A stretch of DNA of 64,000 bases from Candidatus Krumholzibacteriota bacterium (GCA_030609325.1 JAUWCL010000001.1:2208-66207); one strand, 5' to 3'. Shown: positions 8,062 to 61,110, counted from the stretch's first letter. Numbers and translations: made by a program. Notes: a model not told the origin generated them from the letters alone.

Positions 8062-9396
8062 TTATCTCTTCACTATGGTGGACGAAAGATCCGCCTCGGC
8101 CACGACGCTGCCGTCGACAAAGGCTTTGCCCCTCATCTTGCAGAACTTCCTCTTCAGCGAGAGCATCTCGAGCTCGAATCTCAGCTGGTCTCCGGGAAGG
8201 ACCGGCTTGCGGAACTTCGCCCTGTCGATCTTTACGAAGTATACCAGATAATTCTCCGGATTGTTCACGCTGGAGAGAAGCAGTATCCCCCCGACCTGAG
8301 CCATCGCCTCGATGATGAGGACCGCAGGCATAATCGGGTGTCCGGGGAAGTGCCCGATGAAGAAGGGCTCGTTTATCGTCACGTTCTTGATCCCGACCAC
8401 CCTCTTACGGTCCTCGAGCTCGATTATCCTGTCGACGAGGAGGAAGGGATACCTGTGGGGCATTATGTCCATGATCGTGCTGATATCCCATTGCCCGGCG
8501 CCGGGCCCAAAGGCGAATCGCTGCTTGTTCTTGAGGTCCTGCGCGAGGAGCTTCGCAAAGGGCAGGTTATAATTATGTCCCGACCTGACCGCGATGATAT
8601 GCCCCTCGATCGGAGCCCCCGCAAGGGTAAGATCGCCCATGATGTCGAGTATCTTATGCCTTACGAATTCGTCGGGGAACCGGAGCGGGGCCTCGTTCAT
8701 GATCCCGTTCTTGTCGACAACAACGGCGTTGTCCAGGCTGCCACCCTTTATGAGCCCCTCCTTGCGGAGCATCTCGACATCCGACATCAGGGCGAAGGTC
8801 CTCGAAGGGGCGATCTCCGAGACGAATGTCCCGGGATCGATATCGAGGGAGAAGTACTGTGTACCGATGAACTCGCTTTCGTATTCGATCGTGTAGCTCA
8901 CCCTGAATCCCTCGTAGGGCAGGGCCATCAATTCGACTTTGTCCTTGTAATACGAGACCGGCGTGGTGATCTTGAGGTATTGTATCGGAACGCCCTGGTT
9001 CTCGGTGCCGGCGGCCTTTATCGATTCGACGAGTTCCATCACGCTGCCGTCGGCGGGCTCGGGCGGCTCGTCGGCGTCGATGTCGATTACGAGATTGTCC
9101 ACCTGCATGCCCGATGCGGCGGCGAGGATGTGCTCAACTGTATGGATCTGGGCGCCGTCCCTCATCAGCGTGGTATTTCTCTTCACCTCTCCCGGATCGA
9201 TATACTCCGCCCTCGCGGGAATTTCAACGACCGGGTCGAGATCGATACGCCGGAATACGATCCCTGTCCCGACGGGTGCCGGCTTGAACACGGTACGGAC
9301 CTTCGCCCCCGTATGTATGCCGATACCCTCGAATGTAAACTGATTCTTAATCGTCCTCTGCTGACGGACCACTTCCCTTTCCTTTCTCCAGAGCAT
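8062..9396 (-). CDS. lpxC-fabZ: Bifunctional UDP-3-O-acyl-GlcNAc deacetylase / 3-hydroxyacyl-ACP dehydratase (LpxC-FabZ fusion)
   Basis: The N-terminal ~290 aa is LpxC-like ([14 protein letters not shown]..., HKxLD). The C-terminal ~150 aa is a FabZ hotdog domain ([14 protein letters not shown]..., [13 protein letters not shown]). The probable ATG is at 9396 (MLWRKE...); the ORF-track extension upstream is artefactual. It overlaps the lpxD 3' end by about 46 nt. Confidence 0.85.
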
Positions 9397-11130: not shown

Positions 11131-13377
11131 TTAAAAGAAAGTGCCGAAGGTGAAATGGGGCTCCCATGCCGGGCCGCCGATCTTGTCGAATCCGTATCCG
11201 TAGTCGAATCCGAGGTTGCCCATGCCGGGCATCTCGATCCTGATACCTATGCCCAGCCCCCGTCTCATATTGTAGATGTTCGCCTCGGTCATCGAGTTCC
11301 ACGCGTTTCCTACGTCGTAGAAGACGAGGCCCCAGACCATCTGCGAGAAGGGGAAAACGAGCTCCTGCGAAATCCTGGTCATAAACGTTCCGCCTACGAA
11401 CGGATTGTTCCCCTCGGGCACGACCTCGTAGAAATCGTATCCCCTCAGAGGGAACCGCCTGTTTCCGCCGAGACGGTACTTCTCGTAATCCTCCACCTGC
11501 ACGCCGCCGTAGCCGTGGATGCCGGCGCCGTCGAGAGCCAGGTGGAAAGTCAGCTTCCAGAAGAGGAGCTTGAACCAGGAAATCGACGCGCTGTTCCTTA
11601 TGAACTGGACGTTGCCCCCGAAGATCCCGCCGGCCAGCTCGGTATTCCACGTGATGATCGAGCCTCTTGTCGGATGGAAGGGACTATCGGTCGAGTTCCT
11701 CACGATGCTCAGCGTCACGGTGCTTTTATTCAGCGGCCAGTCTACCCTCCTCAGCGATCCACTCTTCGGGTAGGACTGGTCGAAATCCGAGAGGTTCACC
11801 CTCTCGAACCTGTACCCGAGGAAGAACCTCGTGTAGTCGAGCATCGGCAGCTGACGCCCGCTGCGTATCGAGAATCCGGTCCTCGTATCCTTGTAGTACT
11901 GCTGGCTGACCCTGTTCTGCACCCAGTCGAACACATTGAGCGTCAAGGACCATTTCGTGTCGAAGAAATACGGTTCGGTGTACCTGAGGTTGAGGTTCTT
12001 GCGGTACCTGCCGAACTCCCAGTCAAACCCGACCGTTTTTCCGCGGCCGAGGAAGTTGTTCTCCTGCATGCCTAGAAAACCGGTCAGCCTGTTGAGCTGC
12101 GAGAATCCGAAACCGGCCCTGAAGCTCCCCGTCTGCTTCTCCTCGACTTCGATCAGCAGGTTGATGTCGCCCTCGTCACCGACCGGTTCGGTGTCTATCT
12201 TCGGCGGTCCGTTGAAATACCCCAGCTGGAATATCTCGCGGATGCTGCGCTGGATATCCTGCAGTATGAACCTGTCGCCCGGATAGACATCGAGCTCGCG
12301 GCGTATGATGTTCTCGAATGTCTTCGTGTTGCCCGTGATCTTGATCTCGTGTATCGAGGCGGGCTGGTTCTCGACGATCTCGAGGTCGAGATCTATCATC
12401 CTCCGCCGTTTCGTCCGGGTAGGGATGACGCGGCTCCAGATGTAGCCGTTCTCCCAGTAGACTGAGTTGATGCCCATGTTGGTCATCTCCATGGCGTGCA
12501 TGGAGAAGGGATCGCCCTCGACGAGCATGATCAGATCCTCTATCTCCTCGTCTTCGATCTCCTCGTTCCCGTCCCAGGTGATGTCGCCGACGTAGTATCG
12601 GTTCCCCTCTTGGATCCTTATGTAGATGTCCACCCGACGGCCCTCCTGGACCGTCTCGATATGATCGACAGTCACCCTGGCGTCGAGATACCCGTCGTCG
12701 CGGTAGAGGACAAGGATCTTTTCGAGGTCCTCCTCGAGCACCTTGGGCTTGTAGTCCCCTCCCCTGAACCACGAGTCGGGCTTGCTCTCCATCAGGCCGA
12801 AGAGGTCCTTCGAACTGAACACCCCGTTGCCGAGAATGTCGATGTGGCGGATCTTGACCTTCTCGCCCTCGTCGATCCTGTATGTCACGTAGATCTTGTG
12901 TTCTTCCCTCGAAGGGACCCTGTCGACCTCTATCCTCGCCCCGTTGTATCCTTTCTCGGCATAGAGGTCCCTTATGGCGGTGATGTCCCTCGTTATCATC
13001 GCCGGGCGGGCGAAATACCCCTCTCGGATGGAGATCTTGGCCCTTATGTCGTTTTCCTTTATCTTGCGGTTCCCCTTCACGCCCACCGACTTGACCCTCG
13101 GGTACTCCTCGACTACGATCGTCAGAACGGCTTTCCCGCCCTCCTCGTAGTAATACGCCTGTACGTCGGAGAAGTCCTTCGTCCTCACCAGCCGCTTGAT
13201 CCCCTGGGAGATCTTCTCCGCTACGAATGTGTCTCCGGCCTTCACGCCGAGGATCGATTGGATCTTCGTATCGGTCACAAACACGTTGCCCTCGACATCG
13301 ACCCTGTCGACCTCGATCGAGAGGGCCTGCGAGGAGGCCGCAAGTATGATAAACAGTGCAGTAAAAAGCGTTTTCAT
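11131..13377 (-). CDS. bamA: Outer membrane protein assembly factor BamA
   Basis: 748 aa with a signal peptide, repeated POTRA modules and a C-terminal Omp85 beta-barrel ending in an aromatic residue (F). Confidence 0.9.
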   Translation of the reverse strand: MKTLFTALFIILAASSQALSIEVDRVDVEGNVFVTDTKIQSILGVKAGDTFVAEKISQGIKRLVRTKDFSDVQAYYYEEGGKAVLTIVVEEYPRVKSVGVKGNRKIKENDIRAKISIREGYFARPAMITRDITAIRDLYAEKGYNGARIEVDRVPSREEHKIYVTYRIDEGEKVKIRHIDILGNGVFSSKDLFGLMESKPDSWFRGGDYKPKVLEEDLEKILVLYRDDGYLDARVTVDHIETVQEGRRVDIYIRIQEGNRYYVGDITWDGNEEIEDEEIEDLIMLVEGDPFSMHAMEMTNMGINSVYWENGYIWSRVIPTRTKRRRMIDLDLEIVENQPASIHEIKITGNTKTFENIIRRELDVYPGDRFILQDIQRSIREIFQLGYFNGPPKIDTEPVGDEGDINLLIEVEEKQTGSFRAGFGFSQLNRLTGFLGMQENNFLGRGKTVGFDWEFGRYRKNLNLRYTEPYFFDTKWSLTLNVFDWVQNRVSQQYYKDTRTGFSIRSGRQLPMLDYTRFFLGYRFERVNLSDFDQSYPKSGSLRRVDWPLNKSTVTLSIVRNSTDSPFHPTRGSIITWNTELAGGIFGGNVQFIRNSASISWFKLLFWKLTFHLALDGAGIHGYGGVQVEDYEKYRLGGNRRFPLRGYDFYEVVPEGNNPFVGGTFMTRISQELVFPFSQMVWGLVFYDVGNAWNSMTEANIYNMRRGLGIGIRIEMPGMGNLGFDYGYGFDKIGGPAWEPHFTFGTFF

Positions 13378-13557: not shown

Positions 13558-13582
13558 GGCCCCGGGATTCCTTCCCGGGGCC
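13558..13582 (-). terminator. Candidate terminator hairpin downstream of clpC
   Basis: Perfect 9-bp inverted repeat GGCCCCGGG-attcctt-CCCGGGGCC, about 60 nt after the clpC stop. It is followed on the minus strand by TTTCGAAAAG, which is only moderately U-rich. Confidence 0.4.
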
Positions 13583-13639: not shown

Positions 13640-16108
13640 CTATTCCGCCTTGCACGAATCGACCTTCTTCTTATCAACTATGAAAAGAAGACCGTCCGAA
13701 GAGGGATTCGCGGTGATCTTCAGGGTATCGTTCCTGTTTATCTCCCCACCCAGCATTTTCTCGCTCAGCGGGTCCTCGAGCAGCTTCTGGATAGCCCTCT
13801 TGAGCGGCCTCGCGCCGAAGGCCGGATCGTAACCCTTGTCGATTATGAATCCCCTGGCTTCCACGGTGATCTCGAAATCGAGGTTCATCGCCCCGAGTCT
13901 GCTGTAGAGGTCCTTCAGAAGGATCTCGATGACCTCCATCAAATCGCTGCGGTCGAGCTGCCTGAAGACGATCAGCTCATCGATCCTGTTGGTGAATTCC
14001 GGGTTGAATATCTGCCTTGTGGCCTCCATGATCTTGCTCTTCATGTGATCGTAACCGGCGTCGGTGCCTCCGTCCTCGGAGACGAACCCCATACCCTTCT
14101 TTCCCTTCACTTCTTTGGCGCCGGCGTTCGAGGTCATGATGAGGACCGTGTTCCTGAAATCGACCCTGCGGCCGAACGAATCGGTCAGGCTGCCCTCCTC
14201 GAGGATCTGCAGAAGAAGGTTGAAGACATCGGGATGCGCCTTCTCTATCTCGTCGAGAAGCACCACGGAGTACGGCTTGCGCCTTACCTTCTCGGTAAGC
14301 TGCCCGCCCTCCTCGTAGCCGACGTATCCCGGAGGAGCGCCGATAAGCCTGGAGATAGCGAACTTCTCCATGTACTCCGACATGTCTATCTGGATGAGGG
14401 CGTCCTCGCTCTCGAACAGAGTGGCCGACAGCGTCCTGGCCAACTCAGTCTTGCCGACGCCCGTCGGGCCGAGGAACACGAACGAGCCTATAGGCCTTCG
14501 CGGATCGCGCAGGCCCGCCCTGTTGCGCCTTACGGCCCTGGCAACCGCCTGGAGGGCCGGCTCCTGGCCAACGACCCTCTTGCGCAGCTCGTCCTCGAGA
14601 TTGAGGAGTTTGACCGTCTCCTCCTGCTCGACGTCGGCTACGGGAATGCCGGTCATATCGGAGATCACGGTTGCAACGTCCTTCGCCGTGACAATCGATT
14701 CGCTCTCCTGCCTCGACTCGGTCCATTCCCTGTGCCTCTCCTTCAGAGCGGCGCGCAGCTCCTTCTCCTGGTCCCTGAACGAGGCGGCCTTCTCGAACTC
14801 CTGCGCCTGGATCGAGGACTCCTTCTCCTTGGATATCTCCTCGATCTGCCTCTCCATCTCCCTCAGCTCCTCAGGGATCGTGGTCACCGAGAGTCTCGCC
14901 CTCGCACCGGCCTCGTCTATCACGTCGATCGCCTTGTCGGGCAGGAAGCGCCCCTGTACGTACCTCTGCGAGAGATGCACGGCCTGGCTGATCGCGTCGT
15001 CGGTGAATTTCGTCCTGTGATGGGCCTCGTACTTGTCGCGCAGCCCGAGGATGATCAGGATCGTCTCGTCCTCGGTGGGCGGATTGATCATGATCGACTG
15101 GAACCTTCGTTCGAGTGCGCCGTCCTTCTCTATGTGCTTGCGGTACTCATCGAGCGTGGTCGCCCCGACGCACTGTATCTCGCCCCTCGAGAGAGCCGGT
15201 TTGAGCATATTCGAGGCGTCTATCGCCCCCTCCGCTCCTCCGGCACCAACGATCGTGTGTATCTCGTCGATGAAGATTATTATCTGTTCGTTTTCGTGGA
15301 TCTCGGCGATGATATTCTTAAGACGTTCCTCGAACTGTCCTCTGTACTTGGTTCCTGCTACAACTGATGCGAGATCGAGTGTTGTTATCCTTTTGTCCTT
15401 GAGAAGCTCGGGCACCTTGTTGGCGATGATCTTCTGGGCGAGGCCCTCTATGATAGCGGTCTTGCCCACGCCAGGCTCTCCTATGAGCACGGGGTTGTTC
15501 TTTTTTCTCCTGCAGAGTATCTGGATTATCCTGCCCATCTCCTTGTCCCTGCCTATGATCGGATCGAGCTTGTTGTCCCTGGCCAGCTGCGTGAGGTCCC
15601 GTCCGAACTGGTCCAGGGTCGGCGTTTCGCTCTTCGCCTGCTTTGCCCGGTCGGAGCCGCGTCCTGCGCCGCTCTGGTGGATCATCTTCATGATCTCCTC
15701 GCGGACCCTCTTGCGTTCGACGCCCAGCTCGAGCAGCACGCGTGCGGCGACTCCCTCGCCTTCCCGGATCAGCCCGAGAAGAAGGTGTTCGGTGCCGACG
15801 TAGTTGTGCCCGAGGAGCCTTGCTTCCTCGATCGAGAGCTCGAGCACCCGCTTGCCCCTGGGCGTCAGCGGCACCTCGCCCAGCGTCAGCGTATCGCCGC
15901 TGGGCCGGACGATGTTCTCTATCGCCTGCTGGATCTGGTCGAGGTCGAGATCGAGTTTCTGCAACACCCGCGCGGCAATCCCCTCGCCCTCGCGCACTAT
16001 GCCGAGCAGAAGGTGCTCCGTGCCTATATAATCGTGCTGCAGCCTGTTCGCCTCGTCCCGCGCGAGGTATATGACCTTTCTGACCCGCTCTGTGAACTTG
16101 TCGTTCAT
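13640..16108 (-). CDS. clpC: ATP-dependent Clp protease ATP-binding subunit ClpC
   Basis: 822 aa with a duplicated Clp N-domain, two AAA+ modules (GEPGVGKT, GPTGVGKT), a UVR-like linker and a ClpP-binding loop region. Confidence 0.9.
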   Translation of the reverse strand: MNDKFTERVRKVIYLARDEANRLQHDYIGTEHLLLGIVREGEGIAARVLQKLDLDLDQIQQAIENIVRPSGDTLTLGEVPLTPRGKRVLELSIEEARLLGHNYVGTEHLLLGLIREGEGVAARVLLELGVERKRVREEIMKMIHQSGAGRGSDRAKQAKSETPTLDQFGRDLTQLARDNKLDPIIGRDKEMGRIIQILCRRKKNNPVLIGEPGVGKTAIIEGLAQKIIANKVPELLKDKRITTLDLASVVAGTKYRGQFEERLKNIIAEIHENEQIIIFIDEIHTIVGAGGAEGAIDASNMLKPALSRGEIQCVGATTLDEYRKHIEKDGALERRFQSIMINPPTEDETILIILGLRDKYEAHHRTKFTDDAISQAVHLSQRYVQGRFLPDKAIDVIDEAGARARLSVTTIPEELREMERQIEEISKEKESSIQAQEFEKAASFRDQEKELRAALKERHREWTESRQESESIVTAKDVATVISDMTGIPVADVEQEETVKLLNLEDELRKRVVGQEPALQAVARAVRRNRAGLRDPRRPIGSFVFLGPTGVGKTELARTLSATLFESEDALIQIDMSEYMEKFAISRLIGAPPGYVGYEEGGQLTEKVRRKPYSVVLLDEIEKAHPDVFNLLLQILEEGSLTDSFGRRVDFRNTVLIMTSNAGAKEVKGKKGMGFVSEDGGTDAGYDHMKSKIMEATRQIFNPEFTNRIDELIVFRQLDRSDLMEVIEILLKDLYSRLGAMNLDFEITVEARGFIIDKGYDPAFGARPLKRAIQKLLEDPLSEKMLGGEINRNDTLKITANPSSDGLLFIVDKKKVDSCKAE

Positions 16109-16147
16109 GTGCCCCGGTCTTCCTTTCCCCAGGCGGACCCGGCGCCT

Positions 16148-17209
16148 TCAGGACGCCTTCAGCCTCGACCTGATGTAATCAGCTCTGCTCCTGTCCCTCT
16201 CGTCCGGTCCCATGACCTTTTCGTAGAGCATCTGGAGATGCATCGGCTGGATCATTATCAGTATCTCGTTGAGATCGGACAGCCCCGTGTCGGTGACGAT
16301 CCCGAGACCGACGCCGAGACGGACTGCCGAGATGAGCCCCATGGCTTCCCTGGAATCGAGCATCCTCGCGTTCTTCAGAATGCCGTAGGCCCTCCAGATC
16401 TTATCTTCGAGCAAACTCCGTGCCTCTTTGAGAAGGGTTTCACGTGCTTTCTTCTCGAATTCGAGCACTTTTCGTATATGCGAATCCATGTTTTTCACTG
16501 TATCCGACTCGGACAGTCCGAGGGTAATCAAGTTCGATATCTGGAAGAAATTACCCACCACCTCACTTCCTTCCCCATAACTACCCCTCACACTTAATCT
16601 TACGTGCCTGAGGCCGTCCGAGACCTGCCTGATGTCGCCGTTGTGGACCAGTCCCGGGAGGTGGACCATCGCCGAGACCCGCAGCCCGGTGCCGACATTG
16701 GTGGCGCAGGCAGTCAGATATCCGAACCGGTCGGAAAAGGCGAATTCGAGGCTTCCGTCGAGATCGTCGTCGAGACGGCTCACCCTGTCGAACGCCTCGC
16801 ACACCGCCAGTCCAGACTCGAAAGACTGGAGCCTGATGTGATCCTCCTCGTTTACCATAACGCTGAGTTTCTCGCCCCTTGCAACCGCCAGGCCGCGGTT
16901 GGTGAATCTCCTGACCATATCATGCGATATGAGCCTTCTCTCCGCGAGGATCATGCGCTCCGGCTCGGTCGTATCGTTCATGTCGAGGAATATCGAGCCC
17001 TTCATCGAGGGGGCAAGTGCAAGCGCGTCCCTTACCTCGTCGCGGACCAAGGTAAGTTCGGATGCCTCCGCGCAGTAAGTAAACTTCCTTCCATCGATGT
17101 TGCGGGCAAGCCTCACGCGTGTGGCGAAGACAAGCTCGCTCTCCTCACCTCCCTCGGCCAGCCAGGACGCGGGGTTCTTGAGAAGCCTCTGCAGCTGCTT
17201 CTGTTTCAA
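16148..17209 (-). CDS. mcsB: Protein-arginine kinase McsB
   Basis: Aligns along its length to B. subtilis McsB (ASWLAEGGEESELVFATRVRLARN vs SSWMKQKGPESDIVLSSRIRLARN; NEEDHIRLQ; CATNVGTGLR phosphagen-kinase motif). The TTG start overlaps the mcsA stop (TTGA at 17206-17209). Confidence 0.85.
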   Translation of the reverse strand: MKQKQLQRLLKNPASWLAEGGEESELVFATRVRLARNIDGRKFTYCAEASELTLVRDEVRDALALAPSMKGSIFLDMNDTTEPERMILAERRLISHDMVRRFTNRGLAVARGEKLSVMVNEEDHIRLQSFESGLAVCEAFDRVSRLDDDLDGSLEFAFSDRFGYLTACATNVGTGLRVSAMVHLPGLVHNGDIRQVSDGLRHVRLSVRGSYGEGSEVVGNFFQISNLITLGLSESDTVKNMDSHIRKVLEFEKKARETLLKEARSLLEDKIWRAYGILKNARMLDSREAMGLISAVRLGVGLGIVTDTGLSDLNEILIMIQPMHLQMLYEKVMGPDERDRSRADYIRSRLKAS

Positions 17210-17709
17210 CGCTTTTCCATCCCCTTCTTCAGATCGGCGATCTCGTCCCTGAGCCGGGCGGCCCTCTCGTAGTTCTCCAGCTCCACGGAGATTCTCAGCT
17301 CGTCCTCGAGGGCGCGTATCCTGCGTCTCGCGTGGACCTTCTCGGTGCAGTACCTGCGCGGAGACTTTCCGAGGTGCCTGGCGTTCCCGTGTATCCTCTT
17401 CAGGACCTTCGCGATTTCCTCCCCGAACGAATCGTAGCATTTCGAGCATCCCAGGCCGGCGGACTTGCTGAATGCCGCGTACGTCCTCCCGCAGTGCTCG
17501 CACCTCCTTCTCGCCCCCCCCTTCTCCGGCAGGGCACTGCTGACCAGCCCGGCGAGGAGGTCGGTCTTCTCGAAATTGCTCCTCTTCAGGTAATCGAAGC
17601 CCTTTGCCTCGGCGCAGGACCGGCATATGTGGATCTTCACGACCTTGTTTCCATCGACGTTGGTGAAATGTATAGTCGCGTTATTCTTCTTGCAGAACTG
17701 GCAGATCAT
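17206..17709 (-). CDS. mcsA: McsA, activator of protein-arginine kinase (zinc-finger / UVR domain protein)
   Basis: Paired CxxC zinc ribbons (CQFCKK...CRSC; CEHCGR...CSKC) followed by a UVR-like helix (RIRALEDELRISVELENYERAARLRDEIADLK). Confidence 0.75.
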   Translation of the reverse strand: MICQFCKKNNATIHFTNVDGNKVVKIHICRSCAEAKGFDYLKRSNFEKTDLLAGLVSSALPEKGGARRRCEHCGRTYAAFSKSAGLGCSKCYDSFGEEIAKVLKRIHGNARHLGKSPRRYCTEKVHARRRIRALEDELRISVELENYERAARLRDEIADLKKGMEKR

Positions 17710-18395
17710 ATCTTCATCACCGCCACCGACTTGAGTTTGCCTCCCTCCAGCACGAAGCAGCGATCGGCCTTATCGAGGAGCTCCCTCTTGTGCGTCACCA
17801 CGACGAACATCTGGTCCTTCGACCGGCTCAGCTCGAGCATCAGGTCATGAAGAATTTCGCTGTTGGCCTCGTCGAGATTCCCGGACGGTTCGTCGGCAAG
17901 TACGATTGCCGGATCGTTCATCAGGGCCCTGGCTACCGCGACCCTCTGCTGCTCTCCGCCCGACAGCTCGGCGGGCCTGTGCGTGAGCCTCTCGGCGAGG
18001 CCGACCTCCGCTAGGAGCCCGGCTGCCCTCTCCTCCGCACCGTGCTCGGTGCCGCTCCTGAGGAGGGCGGGCATCATGACGTTTTCCAGGGCGTCAAACT
18101 CGGGGAGAAGATAGTGAAACTGGAATACGAACCCGAGGTCCCTGTTCCTTATCGCGTTGAGTTCCCTGTCGGGCACGACGAACGGGTTTTTCCCGCGGAT
18201 CAGCACTCGGCCGCTGTCAGGGGTATCGAGTGTGCCGAGCACGTGCAGGAGGGTCGATTTGCCCGCGCCGGAGGCACCGAGTATCGCTACTACCTCTCCC
18301 CCTTTGGCCTCGAAATCGATCCCCCTGAGAACCTCGATATTTCCCTTGCGGCTCGTGAAGCTCTTCGTCACATTTTCGGCGCTGAGAATACTCAT
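17706..18395 (-). CDS. lolD: Lipoprotein-releasing ABC transporter ATP-binding protein LolD
   Basis: Walker A GASGAGKST, ABC signature LSGGEQQRVAVARAL, and Walker B LADEPSGNLD. Confidence 0.8.
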   Translation of the reverse strand: MSILSAENVTKSFTSRKGNIEVLRGIDFEAKGGEVVAILGASGAGKSTLLHVLGTLDTPDSGRVLIRGKNPFVVPDRELNAIRNRDLGFVFQFHYLLPEFDALENVMMPALLRSGTEHGAEERAAGLLAEVGLAERLTHRPAELSGGEQQRVAVARALMNDPAIVLADEPSGNLDEANSEILHDLMLELSRSKDQMFVVVTHKRELLDKADRCFVLEGGKLKSVAVMKI

Positions 18396-18454
18396 GATCT
18401 CTCACCCGTTTGAAATATACAGCCTGGCGCCTCGATGGGCAACCGTGCTATCAG

Positions 18455-19714
18455 TCAGTCGTAACGTATCGCGTCGAGGGGCGACATGTTGCACGCTTCC
18501 CAACTCGGATAGAGGGTCGCCGCGAACGATATGAACAACGCGGCTGCAGATACCATGACGACGTCGAAAGTCCTTACTGCCACCGGGAGCGTGTTGATGA
18601 AATAGACGTCGGCGGGCAGATCGAGCTCGACCGCCGAGAGCATGGCGCAGATACCCAACCCGGCGGCCACACCGAGAACAGTCCCCAGCGCCCCTATGAT
18701 CGTCCCCTCCATCATGAATATCGACATAATCCCTCTCGAAGACGCCCCCATCGACCTCAGAATCCCTATCTCGCTGCGCTTCTCCATGATTACCATCGTC
18801 AGCATCCCGACGAGGTTGAAGGCTGCGATGAGTATGATCAGCGTTAGCAGCAGGAACATCAGTACCTTCTCCACCTTGATGTAGCTGAAGAGATTCCTGT
18901 TCATCCTGATCCAGTTGTTCATGCCGTAGGCGCCGCTCCTCTCGAGCCTGCTGTCGATCCGGTCCTCCGTCTCCGCCACCTCCCAGATATTGGACGTACG
19001 GACACCGATCCCCCTGGTCGACGCCTCGAAGTCGAAGAAATCCTCCGCCTCCCCGATATCGATATAGGCGAACCGCGAATCGAACTCGAACACGCCGGTC
19101 TTGAAGAAACCAAGGACGCGGAACTCTCTCGTCCGCGGCTGTATCGCTCCCATCCTCATCTCGGCCGGCGCGCTGACGAGAGTGATGATCTCGCCGAGGT
19201 AGACCTTGAGGTCATCGCCGAGGTCCTCACCGAGCACGACCCCGGGCAGATCCCTGCCGTCCTCGAAGCCTGTCGATTCGAAAGACCTTATCGGCGGTAC
19301 GAACGAGTCGACTACCGCCGAGACGTTCCGCTCGGCGTCGAGGTCGACACCCTTTACGATGACACCCTTTGTCTTGACCCTCATCCCTGGGATCAACTCG
19401 TAAAAGAGCAGGGCCTCGCCCCTTATGAACGGCGAGGCGGCGACCACCCCGTCCACCTCCTCCACGATGGCCGTGACGCTGTCTATCCCCGACCACGAGC
19501 CGGGCAGGCTGGCAAAGACGATCACGTGCGTGTTGAACTCGATTATCCGGCTGCGAAGCTCACTCTCGAAACCGTTCATCAGCGAGAGGACGATTATCAG
19601 CACAGCCACTCCGACGAGCGTTCCCCCGACGGCGATCATCGTCACGCGAGATACGAATCCGCTGCGGCGGCGGGCACTGAGATACCTGAGCGCTATTGCC
19701 AGGGAGTAGTGCAT
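18455..19714 (-). CDS. lolE: Lipoprotein-releasing system permease LolC/LolE (FtsX family)
   Basis: 419 aa with an N-terminal TM helix, a large periplasmic loop and C-terminal FtsX-like TM helices. Sits adjacent to lolD. Confidence 0.8.
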   Translation of the reverse strand: MHYSLAIALRYLSARRRSGFVSRVTMIAVGGTLVGVAVLIIVLSLMNGFESELRSRIIEFNTHVIVFASLPGSWSGIDSVTAIVEEVDGVVAASPFIRGEALLFYELIPGMRVKTKGVIVKGVDLDAERNVSAVVDSFVPPIRSFESTGFEDGRDLPGVVLGEDLGDDLKVYLGEIITLVSAPAEMRMGAIQPRTREFRVLGFFKTGVFEFDSRFAYIDIGEAEDFFDFEASTRGIGVRTSNIWEVAETEDRIDSRLERSGAYGMNNWIRMNRNLFSYIKVEKVLMFLLLTLIILIAAFNLVGMLTMVIMEKRSEIGILRSMGASSRGIMSIFMMEGTIIGALGTVLGVAAGLGICAMLSAVELDLPADVYFINTLPVAVRTFDVVMVSAAALFISFAATLYPSWEACNMSPLDAIRYD

Positions 19715-19721
19715 GCCTGCG

Positions 19722-21236
19722 TCAGCCGTCCCTTCCCGTTTCGGGCCGCATCGCGGGGAAGAGGATGACGTCCCTGATGGAATGCGAATCGGTGAGGAGC
19801 ATCACGAGACGATCGATCCCGATGCCCAGCCCCCCCGTCGGAGGCATCCCGTGCTCGAGAGCCCTGAGGTAGTTCTCGTCGACAGGGTGCGTCTCGTCGG
19901 CGCCCTCCTGCCTCATCCTCGTCTGCTGTTCGAAGCGCTCGCGCTGGTCGAGCGGGTCGTTGAGTTCGCTGAACGCGTTGCCCATCTCGAACCCGGCTAT
20001 GTACGGCTCGAACCTCTCGACGAGGCCCTTCTCGCTCCTGTGCATCTTGGCGAGCGGCGACAGCTCGACCGGGTAGTCGGTTATGAAGACCGGCTGTATC
20101 AGATGTGGCTCGACCAGCTCTGAGAAGATCTCGTCGATCAGGCCCACCCATCCCGAGACTCCCTCGAGATTGATGCCGCATCTTTCCGCTGTCTTTCGGA
20201 GCTCCTCTTCGGAGGCCTCGCGAAGGTCCTTGCCCGTCTTCTCCTTTATCGATTCGAAGAAGGGCAGCCTCCTCCACGGAGTGGCCAGATCGATCTCCTG
20301 CTCTCCGTACTTTATCTTCGTCGTCCCCAGCACCTCGTCGGCGAGCTTCTGGTACAGGGTCTCGACGAACTCCATCATGTCGTTGTAGTCCCAGTAGGCG
20401 GCATAGCATTCGAGCATCGTGAACTCCGGGTTGTGCGACCTGTCCATACCCTCGTTCCTGAAATCCTTGCAGAACTCGTATACACGCTCCATCCCGCCGA
20501 CGATCAGCCTCTTGAGATAGAGCTCGTCGGCAATCCTGAGATAGAGCTTCATGTCGAGGGCGTTGTGATGGGTGACGAACGGCCTCGCCATCGCGCCGCC
20601 GTATATCGGCTGCAGGACAGGTGTCTCGACCTCGAGAAAATCCCGCTCGTTGAGAAATGACCTGATCGTGTCGATTATCCTCGCCCTCGTCCTGAAGACC
20701 TCCATTACCTCGTCGTTCACTATCAGGTCGACGTAACGCTGCCTGTACCTGAGCTCCTTGTCCTGCAGACCGTGATACTTCTCGGGGAGCGGAAGAAGCG
20801 ACTTGGACAGGAGCTCGAGCCCCTTCACCTTTATCGTCAGCTCGCCGGTCTTCGTTCGGAAGAGAGAACCTGAGAGTCCGACGACGTCGCCGACATCGAG
20901 GAGCCTGAAGGTCTTCCACGTCTTCTCATCGACCCCGGCGTCCTTGATGTAAAACTGCAGGCTGCCCGTGCCGTCCTTGAGGTTCCCGAACGACGTGTGG
21001 CCGTGCCCCCTTATCGCCATTATCCGCCCCGCTACCGACACCGACGCGCCATCGGTGGAAAGAGATCCCTCGTTCTCCATCGTCTCGATCAGCGAATGCG
21101 TGCGCTCGAACCTGTAGGGATAGGGGTTTACTCCCAGCCTGCGCAGCTCCTCCAGCTTGCGGATGCGCTCGTCCCTCTCCCGTCCCCCTTCCTTTTTTTC
21201 CTTGTCGCTCACCTTCAGCTCTTCCTTTCCTTCCAT
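19722..21236 (-). CDS. lysS: Lysine--tRNA ligase
   Basis: 504 aa class II aaRS with an N-terminal OB anticodon-binding domain and motifs 1-3 (FRNEG..., [10 protein letters not shown]). Confidence 0.9.
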
Positions 21237-60204: not shown

Positions 60205-61110
60205 TCATCCGGGTGGTTTCGTCTTCCATCGCCGGTGAGCCCAGAAATAATGATCGGGGTTGTCCCTGATCACATTCTCCAGTTCCTTCATCAGCGCGGC
60301 AGTCAGACGGAATATCTCTCCCTTACTCTCCGCGCCGGTATCAGCCCGCATGGCCGGTTTAAACCACGCATCATGGGTCTCGTCCTCCCGCCTCACGATG
60401 CTGGCGAATATCATCGGGCATCCGATCTTCCAGACGAACTGCGCCGCCCCGGGATGACTCGAAGAGGGAATGCCGAAGAAATCGACGAATATCCCCGACT
60501 TCCTCGCGTCCTGATCGGACAGGATCGCCACCGCCCTGCTCTTCTTCAGCGAACGGAACACCCCCCTGACGGCGATCCCCTTCGCGATGAGCCCGATGCC
60601 CACAGACCTCCTCAGGTCGTTCATGTAATCGTCCACGAGACTGTTTGTCTGCTCGCCAACGATGAAATCGACAGGAATACCATGTGCGGCACCGGACGCG
60701 CCGAGCAGCTCCCAGCTCCCGAAGTGGCCCGTTACCAAGATCAATCCCTTTCCTTCGGCCAGGGCCGCATCGACGTGCTCCATGCCGTGGATTCTCACCA
60801 GCTCCCGCAGCCTGTCGGTGCTCAGGCGCCGCATGGAAGCGAACTCGACCATCGACTTGGCGAAATTAACGTAGGAACGTCTTCCGATCCGAACCCTGTC
60901 CGCCTTCCCGATAGTATCGCCGAACGCTCTCTCGAGATTGTCGAGGGTCACGCGGCGCCTGACCCTGACGGCGTCGAAGGCGAACGCCCCGACGAGTCCG
61001 CCTGCCTTGATCGACCATCTGTATGGAAGAACCATCGGCAGCCAGCTGAGCAGCTTTACCCCGAAGAGCTCAAGCCTGTGTCTGAATCTTTTCCATCCCG
61101 TTGCGGGCAT
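60205..61110 (-). CDS. lpxL: Lipid A biosynthesis (Kdo2-lipid IVA) acyltransferase, LpxL/HtrB family
   Basis: 301 aa with an N-terminal TM helix and the LPLAT HX4D-type motif region (LVTGHFGSWE). Confidence 0.7.
   Translation of the reverse strand: MPATGWKRFRHRLELFGVKLLSWLPMVLPYRWSIKAGGLVGAFAFDAVRVRRRVTLDNLERAFGDTIGKADRVRIGRRSYVNFAKSMVEFASMRRLSTDRLRELVRIHGMEHVDAALAEGKGLILVTGHFGSWELLGASGAAHGIPVDFIVGEQTNSLVDDYMNDLRRSVGIGLIAKGIAVRGVFRSLKKSRAVAILSDQDARKSGIFVDFFGIPSSSHPGAAQFVWKIGCPMIFASIVRREDETHDAWFKPAMRADTGAESKGEIFRLTAALMKELENVIRDNPDHYFWAHRRWKTKPPG

What the first reader, a model, noticed from the sequence alone, without database searches (positions are those of the whole stretch)
13640..18395. 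McsA/McsB/ClpC arginine-phosphorylation module in an LPS-containing diderm, wired downstream of lolDE with no ctsR
mcsA (zinc-finger / UVR activator), mcsB (protein-arginine kinase, TTG start overlapping the mcsA stop as TTGA) and clpC are contiguous. McsB aligns along its length to B. subtilis McsB. In Firmicutes this trio follows ctsR and is heat-shock regulated. Here mcsA starts 3 nt after the lolD stop, in an unbroken co-directional run lysS-lolE-lolD-mcsA-mcsB-clpC. I found no CtsR heptad-repeat operator (GGTCAAAnAnGGTCAAA) anywhere in the window. The same window encodes a full lipid A / Bam / Lol machinery, so the host is a classical diderm. This implies pArg-tagged degradation that may be co-expressed with lipoprotein trafficking and is regulated differently from the Firmicutes paradigm.
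Basis: partly seen in the sequence, partly recalled or inferred. Interest (0 to 1): 0.6.

Follow-up and report, generated by a model that had tools for sequence, protein, structure and literature searches.

The report
Arginine-kinase/ClpC module fused to lolD operon
A protein-tagging and degradation system thought of as Gram-positive (McsA/McsB arginine kinase plus ClpC unfoldase) sits in this outer-membrane-bearing bacterium without its usual repressor CtsR, joined to the lipoprotein-export gene lolD, and the same arrangement recurs in many other outer-membrane-bearing phyla.

Summary
On the minus strand, lolD (18395-17706), mcsA (17709-17206), mcsB (17209-16148, TTG start) and clpC (16108-13640) are contiguous. 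lolD/mcsA overlap as ATGA (not "3 nt after") and mcsA/mcsB overlap as TTGA. McsB, McsA and ClpC align end to end with the solved Bacillus proteins and keep their catalytic, zinc-binding and phosphoarginine-binding residues.

The host is an LPS diderm, closest to Candidatus Krumholzibacteriota MAGs. bamA-skp-lpxD-lpxC/fabZ-lpxA-lpxB-lpxK follow clpC directly. I found no ctsR, CtsR box or CIRCE in the 64 kb window.

The arrangement is not a local oddity. Among 160 related loci, lolD lies directly upstream of mcsA in 83 of 135 evaluable cases (Gemmatimonadota, Eisenbacteria, Ignavibacteria, Fibrobacterota, Binatia). In 16 more, mostly PVC/Omnitrophota, one ilvE-like gene lies between them. ctsR appears in seven, including all four Bacillota genomes.

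In Krumholzibacteriota, a conserved TTGCCC-N17-TATATT footprint precedes lolD and a stable hairpin follows clpC. This suggests a lolD-mcsA-mcsB-clpC transcript.

Verdict: a genuine pArg/ClpC module in a CtsR-less, lol-linked configuration, a new variant of a known kind. Co-transcription and any envelope link are inferred, not shown. Chlamydia is the studied diderm precedent.

The parts
18414..18442 (-). Promoter-like element in the 59-nt lolE-lolD spacer: TTGCCC (18442-18437), 17-nt spacer, TATATT (18419-18414)
   Evidence: Consensus scan. Both hexamers and their spacing are conserved in the window, L165, L166 and L083 (TTGCCA), while the spacer between them has diverged (alignment A2).
17706..18395 (-). 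lolD, the ATPase of the lipoprotein-release ABC transporter (229 aa)
   Evidence: Best NCBIfam match is TIGR02211 LolD, 275.6 bits against a cutoff of 307.75. PF00005. Its TGA overlaps the mcsA ATG.
17206..17709 (-). mcsA, the arginine-kinase activator (167 aa): two CxxC...CxxC zinc modules plus a UVR coiled coil
   Evidence: NF053706 McsA at 6.5e-39 (133.6 bits, cutoff 210) and PF02151 UVR. Aligns over residues 1-164 to B. subtilis McsA 8wtb_B, with C3, C6, C29, C32, C70, C73, C88 and C91 all conserved.
16148..17209 (-). mcsB, the protein-arginine kinase (353 aa, TTG start in a TTGA overlap with the mcsA stop)
   Evidence: PF00217 at 3e-60 and PF27454 McsB_C. NF002194 at 374.2 bits against a cutoff of 385. 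267 bits to 6fh1/6tv6 over residues 14-351. NEEDH 120-124, R126, C168, R177, R208, E213 and R342 are present; all but N120 (N in 163 of 166) are invariant in 166 relatives.
13640..16108 (-). clpC, a class I AAA+ unfoldase (822 aa) with an NTD, a short M-domain and a ClpP-docking MGF loop
   Evidence: 1018 bits to B. subtilis ClpC. The NTD scores 156-166 bits to the ClpC/ClpC1 NTDs, including 5hbn. T6, E31, K86 and E107 correspond to B. subtilis/S. aureus T7, E32, K85 and E106. Both Walker A/B motifs, the pore loops and KKGMGF are readable in the translation.
13558..13582 (-). GC-rich 10-bp hairpin 58 nt after the clpC stop; a likely transcript end, with a weak U tract
   Evidence: MFE -27.5 kcal/mol over the 61-nt folded stretch containing it, z = -3.9. 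The stem is conserved in L165 and a similar hairpin is present in L083. The scan flagged the same stem.
18455..19714 (-). lolC/E-family permease (a single copy); an upstream co-directional neighbour
   Evidence: TIGR02212 lolCE at 328 bits against a cutoff of 362; MacB_PCD plus FtsX domains.
19722..21236 (-). lysS, upstream co-directional neighbour, 7 nt from lolE
   Evidence: NF001756 at 705 bits, above the cutoff.
11131..13377 (-). bamA, the first gene of the downstream outer-membrane/lipid A cluster. It has its own conserved promoter-like motif at about 13444-13415.
   Evidence: POTRA plus Omp85 domains. The motif TTTGCA...TGcTAGCAT has its -10 part invariant in all 6 Krumholzibacteriota-type loci, and the -35-like hexamer is largely conserved.

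Best explanation
This is a genuine McsA-McsB-ClpC phosphoarginine system.

Proposed mechanism:
1. McsA (zinc-finger activator) activates McsB.
2. McsB phosphorylates arginines on client proteins.
3. The ClpC N-domain recognises phosphoarginine and feeds the client to ClpP, which is encoded elsewhere in the genome.

What differs from the Firmicutes paradigm is the wiring. There is no CtsR repressor or operator. The three genes instead form the distal part of an operon that begins with lolD. A sigma-70-type promoter sits in the lolE-lolD spacer. lolD/mcsA and mcsA/mcsB are probably translationally coupled through ATGA and TTGA overlaps. A hairpin follows clpC.

Expression is therefore probably housekeeping-like and tied to an essential envelope gene. 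Any stress control would be exerted post-translationally on McsA/McsB/ClpC rather than through CtsR.

This lol-linked, ctsR-less configuration is inherited over long periods in many diderm phyla.

Shown here: gene identities, conserved residues, the overlaps, absence of ctsR and its box locally, and cross-phylum synteny. Inferred: kinase activity, ClpP partnership, the transcript boundaries, and constitutive expression.
For: Identity and residues:
- McsB aligns to solved McsB over its whole length. E121, E122, D123, H124, R126, C168, R177, R208, E213 and R342 are invariant in 166 relatives.
- E337-R338-D339 matches the B. subtilis pArg receptor R337/D338 (PMC8370763).
- McsA aligns to 8wtb_B with all eight cysteines conserved.
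- The ClpC NTD keeps both pArg-pocket glutamates plus T7 and K85, invariant in 123 mcsB-adjacent ClpCs.

Wiring:
- ATGA and TTGA overlaps.
- Conserved -35/-10 footprint upstream of lolD.
- Hairpin after clpC, and a separate conserved bamA promoter-like motif.

No CtsR-type regulation:
- No CtsR box, no CtsR ORF, no CIRCE.
- Apart from the two promoter-like hexamers, only the flanking lolE 3' end and the ribosome-binding-site/start-codon region are conserved in the lolD upstream spacer, so there is no operator-like block.

Synteny:
- Five close relatives have the identical gene order.
- lolD is directly upstream of mcsA in 30 of 73 evaluable species loci and 53 of 62 evaluable metagenome loci. 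The lolD-ilvE-mcsA form occurs in 15 and 1.
- Context classes track the McsB NJ tree, with the ctsR-linked Bacillota sequences forming a separate clade.
Against: - There are no expression data. The promoter and terminator are sequence inferences. The promoter scan as a whole is not above chance (5 found against 2.4 expected), and the hairpin lacks a good U tract.
- Read-through from prfB-lysS-lolE is not excluded.
- ctsR, ywlE and clpP could only be sought in 64 kb plus flanks. A distant regulator or a different operator could exist.
- McsA and McsB score below the NCBIfam equivalog cutoffs (133.6 against 210; 374.2 against 385).
- The Arg that staples the B. subtilis McsB octamer (R194) is Q195 here and K in 124 of 166 relatives, so the gating mechanism may differ.
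Frequencies are therefore not an unbiased census.
Confidence: 0.7

Rival explanations
1. The linkage is functional, not just co-expression. In these diderms the pArg/ClpC system would serve outer-membrane biogenesis. It might clear lipoprotein or OMP precursors that fail to be exported, or set the levels of Lol, Bam or Lpx enzymes. On this view, that is why it is kept between lolCDE and bamA-skp-lpxD.
For: - The module is sandwiched between two envelope clusters. lysS and lolE lie upstream in 22 of 24, 29 of 30 and 5 of 5 loci.
- bamA lies directly after clpC in 19 of 23, 25 of 25 and 5 of 5 lolD-linked loci.
- The lolD-mcsA junction stays tight (many spacings from -4 to +15 nt) across phyla.
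- Even where ilvE is inserted, the genes remain tightly packed.
Against: - Gene order alone cannot separate a functional link from an inherited housekeeping super-operon. prfB-lysS in the same run has no envelope role.
- In PVC lineages bamA does not follow clpC (11 of 12 loci).
- Many Planctomycetota carry mcsAB alone in varied contexts, as Chlamydia does (PMC10128030).
- bamA has its own conserved promoter-like motif.
Confidence: 0.17
2. The module is a recent horizontal acquisition from Firmicutes that happened to land downstream of lolD in this organism.
For: - The system is best known from Gram-positives.
- A horizontal origin has been suggested for the chlamydial mcsAB (PMC10128030).
Against: - GC content is uniform across the region.
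- The same insertion point is shared by at least five named phyla or classes plus the window's own lineage.
- The window McsB is no closer to Bacillota (41-44% identity) than to other diderm phyla (39-51%).
- The Bacillota sequences form their own clade, apart from a 110-tip lolD-linked clade.
Confidence: 0.03
3. McsB here is not a protein kinase. It would be a pseudo-kinase or adaptor only, or a small-molecule phosphagen kinase, and ClpC would work independently of pArg.
For: - No biochemistry exists for any non-Firmicutes McsB. The activity of Gram-negative homologues 'has never been identified' (PMC11046695).
- The R194 clamp is not conserved, and R338/D339 are kept in only about half of relatives.
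Against: - All catalytic and nucleotide-binding residues are invariant.
- The protein lacks the phosphagen-kinase N-domain and has McsB_C instead.
- McsA co-occurs with intact zinc sites.
- The adjacent ClpC keeps both pArg pockets in 123 of 123 cases.
Confidence: 0.05

Closest known systems
Bacillus subtilis / Geobacillus class III heat-shock operon ctsR-mcsA-mcsB-clpC (pArg-ClpCP degradation)
   Same: - The same three proteins in the same order, with mcsA/mcsB overlapping.
- McsB catalytic Cys and NEEDH motif, the McsA zinc modules and UVR domain, and the ClpC NTD pArg pockets, M-domain and ClpP loop are all conserved.
   Different: - No ctsR and no CtsR operator. Here lolD occupies the position upstream of mcsA, with a 4-nt overlap.
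- The host is an LPS diderm.
- The R194 octamer clamp is not conserved.
- No ywlE-type phosphatase motif is nearby.
Chlamydia trachomatis ClpC with McsA/McsB (CT676/CT675)
   Same: - A Gram-negative organism with ClpC plus McsAB and no CtsR paradigm.
- Its ClpCP2P1 degraded arginine-phosphorylated casein in vitro (PMC10128030; PMC11708050).
   Different: - In Chlamydia, mcsAB is a separate operon, unlinked to clpC and flanked by tRNAs.
- Here the three genes are contiguous and joined to lolD.
- The loci recovered here show mcsAB across Planctomycetota, Verrucomicrobiota, Kiritimatiellia and Omnitrophota. This makes a PVC-wide inheritance as plausible as the horizontal transfer suggested for Chlamydia.
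LolCDE lipoprotein-release operon of Gram-negative bacteria
   Same: A lolC/E-type permease followed by the lolD ATPase; these are the best NCBIfam matches.
   Different: - There is a single permease gene, and both proteins score below the equivalog cutoffs.
- The operon continues into mcsA-mcsB-clpC. I found no description of this in the searchable literature.

Membership tests
McsB protein-arginine kinase | Phosphagen-kinase catalytic domain without the N-terminal phosphagen domain, plus a C-terminal McsB dimerisation domain | tested here: met
   PF00217 covers residues 59-255. PF27454 McsB_C is precomputed for the identical protein. Full-length alignment to 6fh1/6tv6.
McsB protein-arginine kinase | NEEDH motif, catalytic Cys (B. 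subtilis C167) and nucleotide-binding Arg/Glu residues | tested here: met
   N120-H124, C168, R126, R177, R208 and E213 are present. E121-H124 and the listed Arg/Cys/Glu residues are invariant in 166 relatives; N120 is N in 163 of 166. Motif definitions are from PMC11046695.
McsB protein-arginine kinase | pArg receptor site (B. subtilis R337/D338) and the auto-phosphorylated R194 octamer clamp | tested here: inconclusive
   E337-R338-D339 is present in the window protein. The position aligned to R194 is Q195, with an Arg one residue earlier, and it is K in 124 of 166 relatives (PMC8370763).
McsB protein-arginine kinase | Score above the NCBIfam equivalog cutoff | tested here: not met
   NF002194 scores 374.2 against a cutoff of 385, and NF053707 scores 342.5 against 500. 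The shortfall is marginal. Sources name close relatives 'protein arginine kinase'.
McsB protein-arginine kinase | Protein-arginine kinase activity | not testable with these tools
   This needs a biochemical assay.
McsA activator | Two four-cysteine zinc modules, the McsB-binding Z2-L3 region, and a C-terminal coiled coil (UVR) | tested here: met
   Aligns over residues 1-164 to 8wtb_B with all 8 cysteines conserved. UVR domain at 129-162. NF053706 scores 133.6, below the cutoff of 210.
ClpC (pArg-reading Clp/Hsp100 unfoldase) | Double Clp_N NTD with pArg pockets (E32, E106), two AAA modules, a short M-domain and a ClpP-binding loop | tested here: met
   E31, E107, T6 and K86 are conserved. UVR-type M-domain at 419-453. 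KKGMGF loop. Residue roles are from PMC12583610.
CtsR-regulated class III heat-shock operon | ctsR gene immediately upstream of mcsA | tested here: not met
   A CtsR profile hits only the 4 Bacillota control loci. It finds nothing in the window or in 76 other species loci. lolD occupies that position.
CtsR-regulated class III heat-shock operon | CtsR heptad direct-repeat operator at the promoter | tested here: not met
   One 3-mismatch hit about 20 kb away, against 0.61 expected by chance. No conserved operator-like block in the lolD upstream spacer.
LolCDE lipoprotein-release transporter | LolD ATPase plus LolC/LolE permeases | tested here: inconclusive
   The best family matches are LolD (275.6 against 307.75) and lolCE (328.3 against 362.45), both below cutoff. 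Only one permease gene is present. I did not look for lolA or lolB.

The most novel reading that the evidence does not exclude
The phosphoarginine/ClpC system is an ancient component of outer-membrane-bearing bacteria that is functionally integrated with envelope biogenesis. It would be co-translated with LolD and kept between lolCDE and bamA-skp-lpx because it removes or regulates cytoplasmic precursors or enzymes of the lipoprotein/OMP/LPS pathways. On this reading, the Firmicutes CtsR heat-shock wiring would be only one of several lineage-specific forms of control, not the general model.
Probability: 0.15. Interest if true: 0.8.

Novelty: new variant of a known kind. Interest (0 to 1): 0.5.

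Why it matters
Arginine phosphorylation as a degradation tag is taught as a Gram-positive mechanism under CtsR control. Chlamydia is treated as a puzzling exception, possibly acquired horizontally.

The loci gathered here show intact McsA/McsB/ClpC sets in Krumholzibacteriota, Gemmatimonadota, Eisenbacteria, Ignavibacteria, Fibrobacterota, Binatia, Planctomycetota, Verrucomicrobiota, Kiritimatiellia and Omnitrophota. None has ctsR nearby. Most are joined to lolD, and many are followed by bamA.

This matters in three ways:
- It changes the question of where the system came from.
- It gives a concrete hypothesis about regulation without CtsR, and possibly about envelope quality control, that can be tested in cultured Gemmatimonadota or Planctomycetota if they share the arrangement.
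- It bears on whether ClpC- or McsB-directed antibacterials and pArg-based degraders could act outside Gram-positives.

Tried and rejected
- **Heat-shock operators.** The CtsR operator search with up to 3 mismatches gave only a chance-level hit. The CIRCE/HrcA operator search gave none.
- **CtsR protein.** A profile built from four Bacillota loci found no hit outside those loci.
- **YwlE-type phosphatase.** The LMW-PTP motif CxGNxCRS was absent from the window and all loci. This does not address the rest of the genome.
- **RNAs.** The Rfam and tRNA scans of the window found nothing.
- **Collection scans.** They returned relatives at 51% identity or less rather than the close Krumholzibacteriota ones. 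I obtained the close relatives through exact-protein look-ups instead.
- **Inserted gene in PVC loci.** I suspected the 0.9-1.2 kb between lolD and mcsA might encode a regulator. By sequence signature it looks like a class IV (IlvE-like) aminotransferase; this is my reading, with no family search run.
- **Stand-alone Planctomycetota mcsAB loci.** Their ORF layouts (sizes and strands) differ from locus to locus; I did not annotate the flanking ORFs, so I did not pursue them.
- **Papers not held.** Suskiewicz 2019 and Trentini 2016 were not in the library. I took residue roles from PMC8370763, PMC11046695 and PMC12583610.
- **Recent transfer from Firmicutes.** Rejected on composition, shared synteny and the McsB tree.


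Full report
**1. What is in the sequence**

All genes in and around the finding are on the minus strand.

| Gene | Coordinates | Product |
|---|---|---|
| lolD | 18395..17706 | 229 aa |
| mcsA | 17709..17206 | 167 aa |
| mcsB | 17209..16148 | 353 aa, TTG start |
| clpC | 16108..13640 | 822 aa |

- The mcsA ATG and the lolD TGA share the tetranucleotide ATGA.
- mcsA and mcsB overlap as TTGA, as described.
- The TTG start for mcsB matches the start an independent gene caller used for the identical database protein P0001.
- The mcsB-clpC spacer is 39 nt.

**2. Identity of the proteins**

McsB:
- It has the phosphagen-kinase catalytic domain (PF00217, 3e-60) and the McsB C-terminal domain.
- Its best NCBIfam model is a protein-arginine-kinase equivalog, just under the cutoff (374.2 against 385).
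- It aligns over residues 14-351 with the solved Geobacillus and B. subtilis McsB structures (267 bits).
- The NEEDH motif (120-124), the catalytic cysteine (C168) and the conserved Arg/Glu residues are present. E121, E122, D123, H124, R126, C168, R177, R208, E213 and R342 are invariant in 166 relatives; N120 is N in 163 of them. Motif roles come from PMC11046695.
- The pArg receptor residues of B. subtilis (R337/D338, PMC8370763) correspond to R338/D339.
- The Arg194 that staples the B. subtilis octamer does not align to an Arg. It is Q195 here and Lys in 124 of 166 relatives.

McsA:
- It aligns from residue 1 to 164 with B. subtilis McsA (8wtb_B).
- All eight zinc-binding cysteines and the UVR coiled coil are conserved.

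ClpC:
- It scores 1018 bits against B. subtilis ClpC.
- Its N-domain keeps T6, E31, K86 and E107, which are the equivalents of T7, E32, K85 and E106. E32 and E106 define the two phosphoarginine pockets.
- These residues are invariant or nearly so (120-123 of 123) in the ClpC N-domains encoded next to mcsB.
- Both Walker A/B motifs, the pore loops and a ClpP-docking MGF loop are visible in the translation.

A pseudo-kinase reading is therefore unlikely.

**3. The host and the window**

- The exact ClpC protein occurs on a 58.9-kb metagenomic contig. Its gene order is coaD-polA-coaE-prfB-lysS-lolE-lolD-mcsA-mcsB-clpC-bamA-skp-lpxD-lpxC/fabZ-lpxA-oxidoreductase-lpxB-DUF374-lpxK.
- A further lipid A acyltransferase lies at 60205-61110.
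- The closest named relatives of McsB (up to 85% identity) are Candidatus Krumholzibacteria/-ota MAGs.
- The rest of the window is housekeeping: fatty-acid synthesis, an ECF sigma factor, efp, accBC, ftsK and sucCD.
- Among the ORFs I annotated there is no clpP or hrcA (about 26-28 kb and parts of 57-64 kb returned no family or were not scanned). No CtsR ORF and no YwlE-type motif is found anywhere in the window.
- There is no CtsR operator, no CIRCE, and no Rfam or tRNA hit.

**4. Transcription unit (inferred)**

- The only real spacer upstream is the 59 nt between lolE and lolD. It contains TTGCCC-N17-TATATT.
- In five closer relatives with the identical gene order, this spacer has diverged. 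Even so, both hexamers at the same spacing are kept in four of the six sequences. Elsewhere in that alignment, only the flanking lolE 3' end and the ribosome-binding-site/start-codon region are conserved, so there is no operator-like block.
- Downstream of clpC there is a 10-bp GC hairpin. The 61-nt stretch containing it folds at -27.5 kcal/mol, z = -3.9. The hairpin is conserved in relatives.
- bamA is preceded by its own conserved promoter-like motif, whose -10 part is invariant in all six loci.
- The simplest reading is a lolD-mcsA-mcsB-clpC transcript with translational coupling at both overlaps. Read-through from prfB-lysS-lolE is possible. None of this has been shown experimentally.

**5. 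How general the arrangement is**

I ran a scan of one genome per GTDB species and a scan of metagenome contigs. Each returned 80 loci, at 39-51% McsB identity. I searched the window's proteins, an IlvE-like protein and a CtsR sequence against six-frame ORFs of all loci.

| Gene immediately upstream of mcsA | Species loci (73 evaluable) | Metagenome loci (62 evaluable) |
|---|---|---|
| lolD directly | 30 | 53 |
| lolD, then one IlvE-like aminotransferase gene | 15 | 1 |
| lolD, then another gene | 0 | 1 |
| ctsR | 4 | 3 |
| something else | 24 | 4 |

- The four ctsR loci in the species set are exactly the four Bacillota genomes.
- The lolD-to-mcsA spacing is typically -4 to +15 nt.

By taxon:
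- lolD-mcsA-mcsB-clpC occurs in Gemmatimonadota (14 loci), Eisenbacteria (4), Ignavibacteria (2) and Binatia (1), and lolD-mcsA-mcsB in one Fibrobacterota contig that ends before clpC could be seen.
- The Krumholzibacteriota-type relatives of the window show the same order. One further short Krumholzibacteriia contig carries a partial lolD next to mcsA.
- The ilvE-containing form occurs in Planctomycetota, Omnitrophota, Verrucomicrobiota and Kiritimatiellia.
- Stand-alone mcsAB without clpC occurs mainly in Planctomycetota, as it does in Chlamydia.

Flanking genes within the lolD-linked class:
- bamA follows clpC in 19 of 23, 25 of 25 and 5 of 5 loci.
- lysS and lolE precede in 22 of 24, 29 of 30 and 5 of 5 loci.

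A rough neighbour-joining tree of 166 McsB sequences, without support values, gives this picture:
- The seven ctsR-linked sequences form one clade.
- A second clade of 110 tips consists of 88 lolD-linked sequences, one with another gene between lolD and mcsA, and 21 too short to classify.
- The PVC forms fall elsewhere.

This argues against recent transfer from Firmicutes and for long-term inheritance of each configuration.

**6. Mechanism**

Best explanation, with confidence about 0.7:
- This is a working McsAB-ClpC(P) phosphoarginine tagging and degradation system.
- Its expression is not governed by CtsR. It is tied to lolD in a housekeeping-type operon.
- Stress responsiveness, if there is any, would lie in McsA/McsB/ClpC activity control.

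Main rival, about 0.17:
- The conserved position between lolCDE and bamA-skp-lpx reflects a functional role in envelope biogenesis or quality control.
- Gene order supports this but cannot prove it. The PVC and Planctomycetota variants, and the separate bamA promoter-like motif, weaken it.

Minor rivals:
- Recent horizontal transfer, about 0.03.
- A non-kinase McsB, about 0.05.

**7. Comparison with what is known**

- The proteins belong to the McsA, McsB and ClpC families.
- The operon is not a member of the CtsR-regulated class III type, because both defining features were tested and failed.
- Chlamydia trachomatis is the studied diderm precedent. It has ClpC plus an unlinked mcsAB, and its ClpCP degraded arginine-phosphorylated casein (PMC10128030, PMC11708050).
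- Database pipelines already name the Krumholzibacteria proteins 'protein arginine kinase'.
- In the searchable literature I found nothing linking McsB with lolD, Planctomycetes or Gemmatimonadota. That library lacks most subscription journals.

**8. Verdict**

- The components are known. What is new is the ctsR-less, lolD-fused configuration and its breadth across diderm phyla.
- Novelty: a new variant of a known kind.
- Interest: 0.5. A Clp or proteostasis specialist would find the breadth and the conserved lol/bamA embedding noteworthy and testable. No new biochemistry is implied unless the envelope link proves real.

Noticed in passing
window 22326-21215 (-), frameshift site about 22246-22240: prfB carries the canonical RF2 programmed +1 frameshift signal: AGGAG TAT CTT TGA C. 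The 338-aa ORF from 22231 is only the downstream frame.
   Followed up: partly
window about 13444-13415 (-), upstream of bamA: A promoter-like motif, TTTGCA...TGcTAGCAT, upstream of bamA. Its -10 part is invariant in all six Krumholzibacteriota-type loci, although the surrounding spacer is only 46% identical. It may be a useful promoter consensus for this little-known phylum.
   Followed up: partly
window 8062-9396 (-): lpxC and fabZ are fused into one 444-aa gene (LpxC plus FabA/FabZ domains). The same fusion occurs in relatives L083 and L084.
   Followed up: no
L007, L013, L016, L017, L020, L024, L027, L034, L035, L042, L047, L059, L063, L070, L074, L081 (between lolD and mcsA): In PVC, Omnitrophota and some unclassified genomes, a single ~290-330-aa ORF is inserted between lolD and mcsA. 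From its sequence signature it looks like a class IV aminotransferase (IlvE-like); no family search was run. It is tightly packed, with spacings of -11 to +20 nt, so the lolD-to-clpC run stays continuous. I have no explanation for why an amino-acid aminotransferase sits there.
   Followed up: partly
L028, L032, L071 (Isosphaeraceae / Singulisphaera): Two consecutive McsA-like ORFs precede mcsB in these Planctomycetota loci. They lack adjacent lolD and clpC.
   Followed up: no
166 McsB relatives, column aligned to window Q195 (B. subtilis R194): The auto-phosphorylated Arg that staples the B. subtilis McsB octamer is Lys in 124 of 166 sequences. This includes most lolD-linked ones and 3 of the 7 ctsR-linked ones. 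The gated-octamer mechanism may therefore be restricted to a subset of Bacillota.
   Followed up: partly
window 1-64000: GC skew is negative in 31 of the 32 2-kb windows, and nearly all real genes lie on the minus strand. The window appears to lie on one replichore with strong gene-strand bias.
   Followed up: no
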